Source: Neocallimastix sp. 'constans'
Taxonomy: Eukaryota
Assembly: GCA_050613775.1 (NCBI GenBank)
Contig: JBODTK010000015.1
Span: forward strand, 1,054,001 to 1,118,000
Direction: 5' to 3'
Length of the DNA stretch: 64,000 nt
Shown here piece after piece: positions 26,822 to 30,142 of the stretch. The notes under the pieces are model-generated. The model was not told where the DNA came from, ran no database searches, and saw only the letters and a program-made list of their open reading frames with translations. Both the position numbers and the translations under genes were made by a program. How positions within the stretch are numbered: position 1 is the stretch's first letter; each line of letters opens with the position of its first letter.

Positions 26822-29800
26822 TTATTTTTTCCTTTTTTCCATTTCATAATGACCTTTACATGATAAAAGATTAACTTTTTCACCATCTACTTCATAGATA
26901 AGTCGATTATTCTTATCGATTTTTCTTGAATATAATCCTTCCAAGTCTGCTTTTAATTTCTCCACACGTCCCATACCTCTAAATGGATCTACCTTAATCA
27001 CTTCAATTAATTGATGAATTTTATTATACGTCGTGGGTTCATTTTTCTCCCAAATTTTTAATTGCTTTTTACATTTTTCAGTAGGAATTGCTTCCCATTT
27101 ATTTAATGGAAATTCATTTATTTCTATTTCAGTATTATCCTTTTTCTGATCATTAGAAAGTAAATTTGACTGGTTGCTTCCCTCCTCTAAAGTGGTTTTA
27201 ATCGATTCATATTGCTGATATTCAAGAGTATTATCTTTTTTATTTTTGGCATCATCAAGTTTTTTAATCTGCTCATTTATGATATCCAATGCTGTTTTAC
27301 CATACTTGTCCTTAGTTACTACTTTTGCTCCTTTCTTTATTAACAATTTTACTATTCTAAGGTGATGATTTTCGGTTGCATAGTGTAATGCAGTCCTGTT
27401 GAAACTGTCCGTAGAATTAATATTTATTTTTTGGTTTAATAATTCTTCAACAACATCAAAATGCCCCTCCTTTGCTGCTGTAATCAATGCCATACCACCT
27501 TCAAGTGTTTTAAAATATTTATTATCTTTCATATAGGATATTAACCATTTCACAACTTCAAGGTTTCCATTTTTAGAAGCGATGACCAAAGCCTTATCTC
27601 CATCTTTATTTCTTGCATTCATAAATATTATGGGGCCACCATTCGTATTATCATTTGTTTCTTCCATCAATGAATCCATTTCGTTGATATCACCGTCGGA
27701 TACTGCTGTTAAAAATTTTTCCACATTTTCTTCCTCAGTTCTATTCGAATAGCATTTGCTTTTTTCTTTAGCAAAATTTCGTTCAACAGGTTGTTTCAAC
27801 AATTCCATTTTTGCTCTAATTAATCTAGCCATACTAATTCTATAGGTTCTTTCCGCACATTGTAATGCAGTTTCACCTTCATCATTTTCAATGGTAATAT
27901 CAATATCGGGTTGATTTAACAACAATTCAACTATTTTTGCGTATCCTGATTCAACGGCAGACATTAATGCCGTATATCCATCCAAATATTGTATGTTCAC
28001 ATCTGCCCCTCTCTTCAATAATAACTTCACAATTTCCTCCTGTCCATGAATTATTGCTTCTGTTAACGCTGAACGTTTTTCATTATGCTCATTAATATTA
28101 ATATTTGGATGATTCAACAATAACTCAGCCATTTCTTTTTGACCCTTCATGGACACATACATTAATGGAGAATAACCAGTATCTTCTTGTAAGTTAATAT
28201 CTATATTTGGCTGTTTCAGTAATAATTCAACCATTTCTTTATTATTTATTGATAAGGCATAGATTAATACCGTATCGCCATATTGATTTTCTGTATTAAT
28301 ATCGATTTCGCCACTTTCCAACAACAATTTTAAAATTTCTATATTATCTCCGTAGGCGGCGGCGTTTAATGCATTCAAACCAATTTTACTTTCTATATCT
28401 AATCTTTTTTTAGGATTTTTCATTAATAATTTAAATACCTCCTTTTTACCGAAAAAGGCGGCATAAATTAAGGCGGTAAAACCTTTATTATCTTGAATGT
28501 TAATGTCAATATTTGGATTCTCTAATAATAATTTTACTATTTCTATTGGTCCATGATTTACTGCTGGTAATAATGCTGTAATGCCAAATTGGTTTTGTCG
28601 ATTAACATCAATTCTTGGATGTTTAAGTAACAACTTACTAATTTCTATATGCTCTTCTTGTACAGCTAATAAGAGCGGCGTAAAATTATATTTATTATCA
28701 TAGATGGAATTAACATCAATATTTGGATGTTTCAGTAATAACCTTACCCTCTCTATATGATCATTTCGGGTTGCATACATTAATGCTGAGCCGCCTTCAT
28801 TATCCTTGATATTTACATCGATTTTTGGATGTTGCAGTAATAATTTAAGGAGTAAATTGTAGTTTTTCTTTTCTGTTTCTTCGTCAGATGCTGCAATAAT
28901 CAATGCTGTACATCCTTTATTATCTTGCTGGTTGACATTAATTTTTGGATGATTAAGTAATAACTTCATTACTTCTATATGGCATATCTGAGCAGTATAG
29001 GTTATGGCACTGGAGCCATAATTAGTTTGTAAATTTACGTCAATTTTTGGATGCTTCAATAATAATTCAATAATCTCTCTATTATCTTTGCGAATAGCAT
29101 AAATTAATGCTGGTGTATTATTAATGTCTTTGACATTTACATCAACCTTTGGATGATTTAATAATAATTTAATTATTTCCTTATGATCCTCCGTTCCATT
29201 AAATTCTGATATTGCAGTCGTTAAAGCGGTAAAACCCTGGTCATCCTGTTGATTGACTTCAATTTTCGGATGATTTAGTAAAAGTTTTATAATTTTTTTA
29301 TGACAATGTTGGGCTGCATATATTAATGCACTATTTCCAATATTAGTTTGTGTGTTGATTTCAATACCGGGTTGATCGAGTAACATTTTAAAAATTTCAA
29401 TATAATTATCATCAGTTGCACACATTAACGCTGTTGCTCCATCAATATCTTGTATGTTAACATCGATATTTGGTTGACTTAATAACATTTGAACTATTTT
29501 TTTAGAACCGATAAGAACTGCACATCTTAAAGCTGTGAATCCAAATTCACCTTGTTTATTAATATCAATATTAGGTTGCTTTAATAATAATTCCATCATT
29601 TCTACATTACCATCATTTGCGGCTCGTACAATGGCTAAACAATCTGTTGAATCAGGACCAATAGTAATCTTTATTTTTGCATTTACATTTACAGGTTCAT
29701 TTTCTAATATCAATTTTGCCCTTTTGTTATCTCTTGTAAGAATACACATTATAAATTCTTTACTTGCATTTTGTACCTGTTGATAAAGAACTTTTAATTT

Positions 29801-30142
29801 TTTGTATACTTTTTTGGAAACTTCATTTTCAACCAAATTTAAATCAGCATCGTTTTTTAACAATAAAATAATTTTTTTATTATCTCCAGTTTGTGCTGCG
29901 ATTGCCAATGCTGTTTTACCGTTTTTATCTTTAGCATTAATATTGATGAGTCTATTTCCTTTGGCATCTTTAATATTTAAAATCATTTGCATAATACTGC
30001 AATCAGCTTCTTTAGTTGCACACATTAATATTGTCCACCCATCTGAATTTTGAGGAGAATTAAAATCTTCTCCTTTTAATTTCATTTGAACTATTTTTGA
30101 AATCCATTGTTTTTTTAATTCTTTATCATTTTCTTCTGACAT
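26822..30142 (-). CDS. Ankyrin-repeat protein (about 25 repeats) with a C-terminal Txe/YoeB-family toxin domain; intronless, about 1106 aa, no signal peptide
   Basis: Single ORF with first ATG at 30142 (the track starts at the preceding TTG). Repeated G-x-T/S-A-L..A...LL....IDVN..D ankyrin motifs. C-terminus DPFRGMGRVEKLKADLEGLYSRKIDKNNRLIYEV...LLSCKGHY matches the YoeB family pattern. Confidence 0.92.
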   Translation of the reverse strand: MSEENDKELKKQWISKIVQMKLKGEDFNSPQNSDGWTILMCATKEADCSIMQMILNIKDAKGNRLININAKDKNGKTALAIAAQTGDNKKIILLLKNDADLNLVENEVSKKVYKKLKVLYQQVQNASKEFIMCILTRDNKRAKLILENEPVNVNAKIKITIGPDSTDCLAIVRAANDGNVEMMELLLKQPNIDINKQGEFGFTALRCAVLIGSKKIVQMLLSQPNIDVNIQDIDGATALMCATDDNYIEIFKMLLDQPGIEINTQTNIGNSALIYAAQHCHKKIIKLLLNHPKIEVNQQDDQGFTALTTAISEFNGTEDHKEIIKLLLNHPKVDVNVKDINNTPALIYAIRKDNREIIELLLKHPKIDVNLQTNYGSSAITYTAQICHIEVMKLLLNHPKINVNQQDNKGCTALIIAASDEETEKKNYNLLLKLLLQHPKIDVNIKDNEGGSALMYATRNDHIERVRLLLKHPNIDVNSIYDNKYNFTPLLLAVQEEHIEISKLLLKHPRIDVNRQNQFGITALLPAVNHGPIEIVKLLLENPNIDINIQDNKGFTALIYAAFFGKKEVFKLLMKNPKKRLDIESKIGLNALNAAAYGDNIEILKLLLESGEIDINTENQYGDTVLIYALSINNKEMVELLLKQPNIDINLQEDTGYSPLMYVSMKGQKEMAELLLNHPNININEHNEKRSALTEAIIHGQEEIVKLLLKRGADVNIQYLDGYTALMSAVESGYAKIVELLLNQPDIDITIENDEGETALQCAERTYRISMARLIRAKMELLKQPVERNFAKEKSKCYSNRTEEENVEKFLTAVSDGDINEMDSLMEETNDNTNGGPIIFMNARNKDGDKALVIASKNGNLEVVKWLISYMKDNKYFKTLEGGMALITAAKEGHFDVVEELLNQKININSTDSFNRTALHYATENHHLRIVKLLIKKGAKVVTKDKYGKTALDIINEQIKKLDDAKNKKDNTLEYQQYESIKTTLEEGSNQSNLLSNDQKKDNTEIEINEFPLNKWEAIPTEKCKKQLKIWEKNEPTTYNKIHQLIEVIKVDPFRGMGRVEKLKADLEGLYSRKIDKNNRLIYEVDGEKVNLLSCKGHYEMEKRKK
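26846..27097 (-). other. yoeB: YoeB/Txe (RelE-superfamily) ribosome-dependent mRNase domain within the ankyrin CDS
   Basis: 84 residues (WEAIPTEK...KGHY) align without gaps to E. coli YoeB as recalled from memory, about 26/84 identities by hand. Equivalents of E46, K49, R65, H83 and Y84 are conserved. Confidence 0.88.

What the first reader, a model, noticed from the sequence alone, without database searches (positions are those of the whole stretch)
26822..30142. Fungal ankyrin-repeat protein fused to an intact bacterial YoeB/Txe toxin RNase: candidate sensor-effector or cell-death system
Seen: an uninterrupted 1.1-kaa ORF with about 25 ankyrin repeats and an 84-aa C-terminal domain that aligns gap-free to E. 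coli YoeB (from memory, about 26/84 identical). It keeps PFxGxG, E46, LK, SR, R65-LxY and the terminal C-x-x-H83-Y84. There is no signal peptide, and both flanks are host-type poly(A/T)/AAT DNA. Established: YoeB/Txe are small stand-alone type II TA toxins of prokaryotes that cleave mRNA in the ribosomal A site and are neutralised by YefM/Axe; repeat-plus-effector layouts typify fungal NLR-like and heterokaryon-incompatibility proteins. Inference: a bacterial toxin domain was acquired horizontally and placed under the control of an ankyrin array, giving a ligand-gated translational kill switch (antiviral or non-self defence) or an antibacterial effector. I do not know of a described ANK-YoeB fusion in fungi.
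Basis: partly seen in the sequence, partly recalled or inferred. Interest (0 to 1): 0.92.

Follow-up and report, generated by a model that had tools for sequence, protein, structure and literature searches.

The report
Symbiont toxin gene captured by fungus
An anaerobic gut fungus carries an intact gene for a long ankyrin-repeat protein ending in a bacterial mRNA-cutting toxin domain; the same fusion, with a predicted export signal, occurs in small-genome bacteria that likely live inside eukaryotic cells, so the fungus likely took the whole gene from such a bacterium and may use it as a controllable brake on protein synthesis.

Summary
The 1106-aa ORF (30142→26822, minus strand) has about 21 ankyrin repeats and a C-terminal YoeB/Txe domain above both curated cut-offs. 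It keeps E46, R65, H83 and Y84; R59 is lysine. It is not a chimera: GC3 matches host genes, and three of four laid runs give it on one identical contig.

The whole ANK-YoeB architecture, including a non-repeat N-terminal block, occurs in gene-dense contigs of ~1 Mb Alphaproteobacteria with an ATP/ADP translocase, a T6SS sheath gene, secretins and many ankyrin genes. There it starts with a signal-peptide-like leader and has no conserved antitoxin neighbour. Fungal and bacterial fused YoeB domains form one clade. Copies in Neocallimastix and Piromyces lack the leader.

Best reading: a symbiont's secreted translation-blocking effector was transferred whole and kept as a cytosolic, probably regulated mRNase. 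Activity, gating and role are untested. YoeB_toxin is already listed as gut-fungus-specific in a 2019 supplement; I found no description of the fusion or its donor.

The parts
26822..30142 (-). Intronless ANK-YoeB gene, 1106 aa, no signal peptide
   Evidence: one identical contig over 26840-30180 in 3 of 4 runs laid
29768..30121 (-). N-terminal block (aa 8-125, one weak ankyrin repeat); in bacterial homologues it follows a signal-peptide-like leader and about 30 spacer residues, both missing here
   Evidence: 76/118 identical to L001 and to P0171, 69/115 to L005; leaders
27896..29635 (-). Central ankyrin array, 17 repeats (aa 170-749); total repeat number varies among near-full-length homologues (12-29)
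27248..27706 (-). Terminal ankyrin module (aa 813-965), conserved across the family ahead of the toxin
   Evidence: model pLDDT mostly above 90
27098..27247 (-). Helix plus variable, low-confidence linker (aa 966-1015)
   Evidence: pLDDT under 50 for about 17 residues before the toxin; lowest identity among homologues together with the first linker
26846..27097 (-). YoeB/Txe RNase domain (aa 1016-1099): E1061=E46, K1074 at R59, R1080=R65, H1098=H83, Y1099=Y84
   Evidence: model pLDDT 84-96
26825..26845 (-). Short basic tail ending KRKK; basic tails occur in most fungal and bacterial copies; role unknown

Best explanation
This is an intact fungal gene for an ankyrin-array protein ending in a YoeB-type RNase domain, likely taken whole from a small-genome, probably intracellular alphaproteobacterium in which it is predicted to be a secreted effector, and likely kept by the fungus as a cytosolic, ankyrin-tethered, regulated mRNA-cutting brake on translation. 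Shown: the architecture, the shared ancestry of the full-length protein with the bacterial genes, the leader in bacterial copies and its absence here, the kept catalytic residues, and host-like codon composition. Inferred step 1: in the bacterium the leader sends the unfolded chain out through Sec, so the toxin never folds beside its own ribosomes and needs no YefM; a secretin/pseudopilin system may carry it on to the host cytosol. Inferred step 2: there the repeats bind host partners and the tethered domain enters the 80S A site and cuts mRNA, as YoeB does on 70S ribosomes. Inferred step 3: after transfer the leader was lost, so the fungal protein meets its own ribosomes and must be kept off (bulk of the array, a bound partner, or low expression) until a signal or proteolysis frees it. 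The result would be translational arrest or local cell death. Odds: bacterial whole-gene origin about 0.85-0.9; active, regulated RNase in the fungus about 0.5; a defence role specifically about 0.3.
For: Bacterial contexts: L001 and L008 share the order transaldolase-miaB-ybeY-corC-tRNA-ANK-YoeB; L007 lies by rodA; L049 by spoT. Sources call these genomes' proteins Alphaproteobacteria. The genomes are about 1 Mb, have an ATP/ADP translocase in 5 of 5 tested, a T6SS sheath gene and two secretins in 4 of 4, and 46-125 ankyrin matches in the 4 fusion-bearing genomes against 2 in the fifth. Long YoeB-bearing ORFs occur in 4 of 61 related genomes. All 10 bacterial-type N-termini tested have a basic start and a hydrophobic core; the window and L009 proteins do not. 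Fused YoeB domains of fungi and bacteria form one clade apart from stand-alone YoeB (24 rows at 97/91, 25 at 96/78). More divergent leader-bearing ANK-YoeB paralogues (L050, L052) were seen only in the bacteria. GC3 is 0.22 here, 0.21-0.29 in three host genes and 0.34-0.44 in six bacterial copies. E46, R65, H83, Y84 are kept in 27 of 27 aligned fusions. dN/dS window vs fungal L009 is about 0.2. Fungal pair L009/L010: 0.17 in the terminal repeats (p 8e-8), 0.34 in the toxin (p 0.09). Six of 20 holder runs are on record as RNA; the two laid cover the ORF on single 3.4-3.7 kb contigs. Pneumococcal YoeB kills Arabidopsis, and RelE inhibits yeast (PMC4773802, passages).
Against: No activity or regulation was measured. 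R59, described as required (PMC3814384), is K here and in P0006, P0003 and bacterial L051. Several copies outside the 27-row table are degenerate: P0252 (R59 to E), P0255 (R65 to Q), P0259 and P0253 (end before His-Tyr; may be partial), the N. lanati model P0011 (different C-terminus without His), L010 (frameshift before the toxin), and three single-base deletions in the contigs of run X10. Purifying selection on the toxin within fungi is not significant on its own (p 0.09). The signal peptide rests on pattern and hydropathy, not a trained predictor. The tree backbone is poorly resolved and the outgroup branches are long, so direction rests mostly on distribution. RNA runs may hold DNA and no silent-region control was laid. 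In bacteria the gene often sits behind tRNA-Val among HipA, AbiEii and RelE/ParE genes, which could suggest a defence-island role. The donor's host is unknown.
Confidence: 0.5

Rival explanations
1. Passenger or repeat-only function: the gene came whole from the bacterium, but in fungi the toxin is weak or does not act on fungal ribosomes, and selection keeps mainly the ankyrin scaffold while toxin domains slowly decay.
For: R59 to K here; degenerate or truncated copies; dN/dS higher in the toxin (0.34) than in the repeats (0.17) in the one close fungal pair; a cytosolic active RNase with no antitoxin would be costly.
Against: The toxin is the most conserved region against P0006 after the repeat core (67/83, against 30/51 and 22/36 for the linkers). 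The four core residues persist in fungal copies only about 60% alike, from two genera, after full GC3 amelioration.
Confidence: 0.27
2. Antibacterial weapon: the fungus turned the effector against bacteria, including the donor symbiont, by attacking 70S ribosomes.
For: YoeB's natural target is the bacterial ribosome (PMC6821326); several 16S-contacting positions such as K26, F39 and G43 are kept.
Against: No leader or other export or uptake signal in the fungal copy; a 1100-aa protein has no evident route into a bacterial cytoplasm; the decoding-centre nucleotides YoeB uses are universal.
Confidence: 0.1
3. One reading: the fungus acquired a stand-alone yoeB and fused it to its own ankyrin array (with later transfer to bacteria if needed).
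For: One origin for the fungal copies is not rejected (AU p 0.056; p 0.29); fungal copies did gain extra N-terminal repeats in some cases (L009, P0003).
Against: Full-length homology to bacterial genes including the non-repeat block; deeper fusion paralogues with the same leader in the bacteria; conserved chromosomal position in two bacterial contigs; no named eukaryote outside Neocallimastigomycota among 47 hits.
Confidence: 0.05
4. Assembly chimera or bacterial contamination.
For: Bacterial homologues occur in metagenome contigs and a rumen-type MAG; L004 diverges from the window about 180 bases past the stop codon.
Against: Host-like GC3; AT-rich flanks in window, L004, L009, L010; identical ORF in runs of several studies; homologues on fungal scaffolds of 0.24-1.3 Mb.
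Confidence: 0.02

Closest known systems
YoeB/Txe toxins of YefM-YoeB type II toxin-antitoxin systems (PF06769, TIGR02116)
   Same: Domain above both cut-offs; E46, R65, H83, Y84 kept; predicted secondary structure fits the RelE-type fold
   Different: Fused behind about 1000 residues of ankyrin repeats; no adjacent antitoxin; leader in bacterial copies; R59 to K here; the dimer tryptophan W5 seems absent
YoeB_toxin listed among 40 Pfam domains unique to anaerobic gut fungi (PMC6712302, Table S1)
   Same: Very likely the same gene family
   Different: A table row only; main text has no mention of toxin, YoeB or ankyrin; no architecture, donor or function given
Ankyrin-repeat toxins and effectors of intracellular bacteria, and their proposed transfer to a eukaryote (latrotoxin C-terminal domain; PMC3482391, passages)
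   Same: N-terminal ankyrin array plus C-terminal toxin domain, no immunity gene, endosymbiont source, captured by a eukaryote
   Different: The toxin is a classical ribosome-dependent TA mRNase; that survey reports one case of a classical RelE domain in polymorphic toxins and never names YoeB in the text held
Multidomain RelE/ParE-superfamily toxins (PMC11980606, passages and supplement search)
   Same: YoeB in fusions, some in eukaryotes including a fungus with endobacteria
   Different: Those are toxin-antitoxin fusions; 'ankyrin' has 0 hits in text and in the held (partly cut) supplements
NLR-like genes moved from Mycoavidus endosymbionts to Mortierellomycota (PMC11291939, passages)
   Same: Repeat-bearing conflict gene shared between an endosymbiont and an early-diverging fungus
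   Different: No nucleotide-binding domain here; different donor and effector
RNase L (ankyrin sensor plus RNase; from established knowledge)
   Same: Layout of ankyrin repeats ahead of an RNase, a model for how gating could work
   Different: No pseudokinase or KEN domain; analogy only
Rickettsia VapC2 acting on host rRNA (PMC12321070, abstract only)
   Same: A TA RNase of an intracellular alphaproteobacterium reported to act on host translation
   Different: Stand-alone PIN toxin with antitoxin; no leader, no repeats, no transfer to host

Membership tests
YoeB/Txe domain family | Score above curated Pfam and TIGR cut-offs | tested here: met
   73.8 vs 27 bits; 74.6 vs 51.8 bits
YoeB/Txe domain family | Catalytic E46, R65, H83, Y84 | tested here: met
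YoeB/Txe domain family | R59 (transition-state and phosphate contact) | tested here: not met
   K1074, a conservative change; R in 22 of 27 aligned fusions
YoeB/Txe domain family | W5/W10 dimer interface | tested here: inconclusive
   No Trp at the extrapolated position 5 in 27 of 27, but E. coli residues 1-11 were outside the tool alignment; monomeric YoeB stays active (PMC6821326)
YoeB/Txe domain family | Ribosome-dependent A-site mRNA cleavage | not testable with these tools
   needs an assay
Type II YefM-YoeB toxin-antitoxin system | Small stand-alone toxin beside a cognate antitoxin gene | tested here: not met
   1106-aa fusion; only low-complexity short frames within 22900-33000; PhdYeFM matches in 0 of 3 fusion-bearing genomes G001, G006, G012, and at other contigs in G003 (genomes may be incomplete)
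Fungal NLR / HET proteins | Central NACHT or NB-ARC domain with an N-terminal effector | tested here: not met
   none among 13 Pfam families at E 0.1; effector is C-terminal
Secreted repeat-toxin effectors / polymorphic toxins (bacterial copies) | N-terminal export signal | tested here: inconclusive
   basic start plus hydrophobic core in 10 of 10 by pattern and hydropathy only; absent from the window copy
Secreted repeat-toxin effectors / polymorphic toxins (bacterial copies) | Repeats plus C-terminal toxin domain | tested here: met
Secreted repeat-toxin effectors / polymorphic toxins (bacterial copies) | Adjacent immunity gene and interchangeable C-termini | tested here: inconclusive
   no downstream gene common to the six loci read; a methyladenine glycosylase follows in 2 of 6; other C-termini on this scaffold were not surveyed
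RNase L | Pseudokinase and KEN RNase domains | tested here: not met
Holosporales-like endosymbiont (donor) | Small genome, nucleotide translocase, T6SS, many ankyrin genes, no VirB4 | tested here: met
   that this profile marks Holosporales is recalled
Holosporales-like endosymbiont (donor) | Phylogenetic placement in the order | not tested
   tools give only 'Alphaproteobacteria'; a 16S gene is held in L056 but no reference set was available

The most novel reading that the evidence does not exclude
Anaerobic gut fungi host, or once hosted, this uncultured energy-parasitic alphaproteobacterial lineage inside their cells. The bacterium uses a classical toxin-antitoxin mRNase, stripped of its antitoxin, as an exported weapon against host ribosomes, and the fungi captured that weapon, perhaps more than once, and turned it into an ankyrin-gated translation kill switch.
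Probability: 0.2. Interest if true: 0.87.

Novelty: new variant of a known kind. Interest (0 to 1): 0.67.

Why it matters
It points to an undescribed use of a textbook toxin-antitoxin RNase as a secreted, antitoxin-free effector against eukaryotic ribosomes. It gives a genetic trace of close contact between anaerobic gut fungi and an uncultured intracellular-type bacterial lineage; described donors to these fungi are, as far as I recall, mostly free-living gut bacteria. It also offers a natural paired test: one protein family with and without its export signal, in attacker and recipient, which shows how a eukaryote can tolerate or tame a translation toxin.

Tried and rejected
Complex prediction of the terminal ankyrin module with the toxin domain gave no answer (score 0.00); it is not evidence either way. 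Fold searches with the two-domain model returned only ankyrin chains, so the toxin fold was not tested structurally; sequence evidence was sufficient. The 50%-representative search was swamped by generic ankyrin proteins but yielded about ten family members. No whole genome is held for the window, so copy number in this genome was not counted. PADLOC: no match. Viral contigs: only stand-alone YoeB-like genes. The ESM Atlas did not complete. Earlier scan findings: none. Repeated independent transfers: the free trees scatter the fungal copies, but one origin was not rejected (one search is the quick tree), so I do not claim it. dS against bacterial copies is near saturation, so those ratios (0.08-0.18) are rough. 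Four small same-label runs hold next to none of the words; no conclusion drawn. The W18 column was mislabelled and is ignored. Literature: YoeB + Neocallimastigomycota 0 papers; YoeB + ankyrin 7 papers, none about such a fusion by title or abstract start; no YoeB hit in the gut-fungus HGT listing or in the main texts of 10.1101/487215, 10.1101/514042 and PMC11291939, nor in the held supplements of the last. bioRxiv supplements could not be seen and may list these genes.
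Full report
Observation. The minus strand holds one open frame from ATG 30142 to the stop at 26822, 1106 aa. Pfam and NCBIfam find ankyrin repeats and a C-terminal YoeB/Txe domain above both curated cut-offs (73.8 and 74.6 bits). 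A family-built HMM scores 21 repeats: one weak, 17 central, three terminal. The domain aligns without gaps to E. coli YoeB 12-84, 24 of 73 identical. E46, R65, H83 and Y84 are kept. R59, which PMC3814384 (passages) lists as required, is lysine. The host is inferred to be an anaerobic gut fungus; no tool named it.

It is a real fungal gene. GC3 is 0.22, like three host genes in the window (0.21-0.29) and unlike six bacterial homologues (0.34-0.44). Twenty of 24 listed runs, from 16 studies, hold at least 94% of the sampled words; two may be the source of this DNA. Of four runs laid, three give 26840-30180 on one contig with no difference; the fourth gives it in two long contigs with three single-base deletions that I cannot explain. 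Two of the three are on record as RNA, so transcription is likely, but no silent-region control was laid. Named homologues come from Piromyces sp. E2 (two), Neocallimastix lanati (two) and Neocallimastix 'constans' (one). Of 47 longer proteins found with the toxin profile, 35 carry both ankyrin and YoeB domains, and six more are fragments of the same family.

The fusion is bacterial. The same architecture lies in gene-dense contigs without poly(A/T) runs. L001 and L008 share transaldolase-miaB-ybeY-corC upstream, L007 lies beside rodA, and L049 beside spoT. Homology covers the whole protein: against L001, 76/118 in the N-terminal block, 85/148 in the terminal repeats and 53/83 in the toxin. 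Bacterial copies begin with a basic, then hydrophobic leader (10 of 10 tested; pattern and hydropathy only), which the window and L009 copies lack. In a tree of 59 YoeB domains, fungal and bacterial fusions form one clade apart from stand-alone toxins. More divergent leader-bearing fusions were seen only in the bacteria. With YoeB otherwise a prokaryotic family, this points to transfer from bacterium to fungus. The backbone is weak, and one transfer followed by duplication is not rejected (AU p 0.056 and 0.29). In these trees P0003 stood for the 90% cluster that holds the N. lanati model P0011.

The donor looks intracellular. Sources call it Alphaproteobacteria. Genomes are about 1 Mb; 19 of 61 searched have a YoeB match and 4 have it in a long frame. 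All five tested carry an ATP/ADP translocase. All four fusion-bearing genomes carry a T6SS sheath gene and two secretins, one beside pseudopilin-like genes in G001, and none gave a VirB4 match. They have 46-125 ankyrin matches. That profile recalls Holosporales-like symbionts (recalled). PMC11257099 (passages) names small-genome, translocase-bearing alphaproteobacterial orders of gut protists as putative endosymbionts; I did not test whether the donor belongs to one. Its host is unknown. In 4 of 6 bacterial loci the gene follows tRNA-Val(CAC); in L005 two identical tRNA-Val copies 7.6 kb apart flank it and a HipA module, which suggests an integrated island.

Mechanism. In the bacterium, export of an unfolded chain would explain an intact toxin with no neighbouring antitoxin. 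YoeB uses universal decoding-centre bases (PMC6821326, PMC3814384; passages), stays active as a monomer, and a pneumococcal YoeB kills plant cells (PMC4773802; passages), so action on 80S ribosomes is plausible. The model shows a well-folded terminal repeat module and toxin joined by a low-confidence linker of about 17 residues, compatible with a tethered domain. In the fungus the leader is gone, so the protein should be cytosolic and needs restraint. The four core residues are kept in 27 of 27 aligned fusions. dN/dS is about 0.2 between the window and fungal L009, and 0.17 (repeats, p 8e-8) and 0.34 (toxin, p 0.09) in a close fungal pair. Against this, several copies outside that table are degenerate or cut short (P0011, P0252, P0253, P0255, P0259, L010). 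I put a regulated cytosolic mRNase at 0.5, a passenger or repeat-only role at 0.27 and an antibacterial role at 0.1.

What is known. PMC6712302 lists YoeB_toxin among 40 domains unique to anaerobic gut fungi in Table S1 (supplement search); its main text does not mention it (passages and section 7). Searches for YoeB with Neocallimastigomycota or with ankyrin found no description of the fusion. The survey of multidomain RelE/ParE toxins has no ankyrin case in text or held supplements, and a polymorphic-toxin survey reports one classical RelE case. Subscription papers and preprint supplements were not searchable. The protein has a YoeB domain but is not a type II TA system, an NLR or an RNase L. 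It works most like an endosymbiont ankyrin-toxin effector captured by a eukaryote.

Verdict. Observation confirmed; interpretation partly supported. New variant of a known kind; interest 0.67.

Noticed in passing
window 33087-34604 (-) and 38081-39625 (+): Two near-identical sugar-transporter genes (8 differences over about 1.5 kb) in divergent, inverted arrangement: a recent duplication or conversion.
   Followed up: partly
window 55957-59430 (-): 1157-aa protein with Agd3-type CBM87 and deacetylase domains, a Thr/Glu repeat linker and two CBM1 domains.
   Followed up: partly
window 12008-12397 and 41097-41465: Short frames that read like decayed reverse-transcriptase fragments (recalled resemblance; no Pfam match).
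   Followed up: no
window 10881-11464: Two overlapping antisense open frames of 159 and 176 codons in a 33% GC patch; no Pfam match for the minus-strand one.
   Followed up: no
L005 4900-12531: Two identical tRNA-Val(CAC) copies flank ANK-YoeB, a methyladenine glycosylase and an HTH-HipA pair; upstream lie repeated short toxin/immunity-like cassettes.
   Followed up: partly
L009 420-5627: 1735-aa fungal-type copy with a different ankyrin array added in front of the bacterial N-terminal block, so post-transfer fusion also happens.
   Followed up: partly
run X16 laid on window 26770-30180: Other 3.6-3.8 kb contigs at similar depth match toxin and repeat segments; their loose ends resemble P0153- and P0251-type paralogues, hinting at several copies per genome. 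The run is labelled a metagenome, so this is weak.
   Followed up: partly
L060 220-2274: Single gene with both T6SS sheath subunits (VipA and VipB) fused; ORFs of similar length in four genomes.
   Followed up: partly
L056 5060-5686 (G001): A second, divergent YoeB-like frame next to the rRNA operon at a contig end.
   Followed up: no
L004 3655-3754: The 3' flank of an otherwise identical copy leaves the window sequence about 180 bases past the stop codon.
   Followed up: no
P0265: A 544-aa protein with a signal-peptide-like start and a C-terminal YoeB domain but no ankyrin match: possibly a second secreted YoeB architecture.
   Followed up: no
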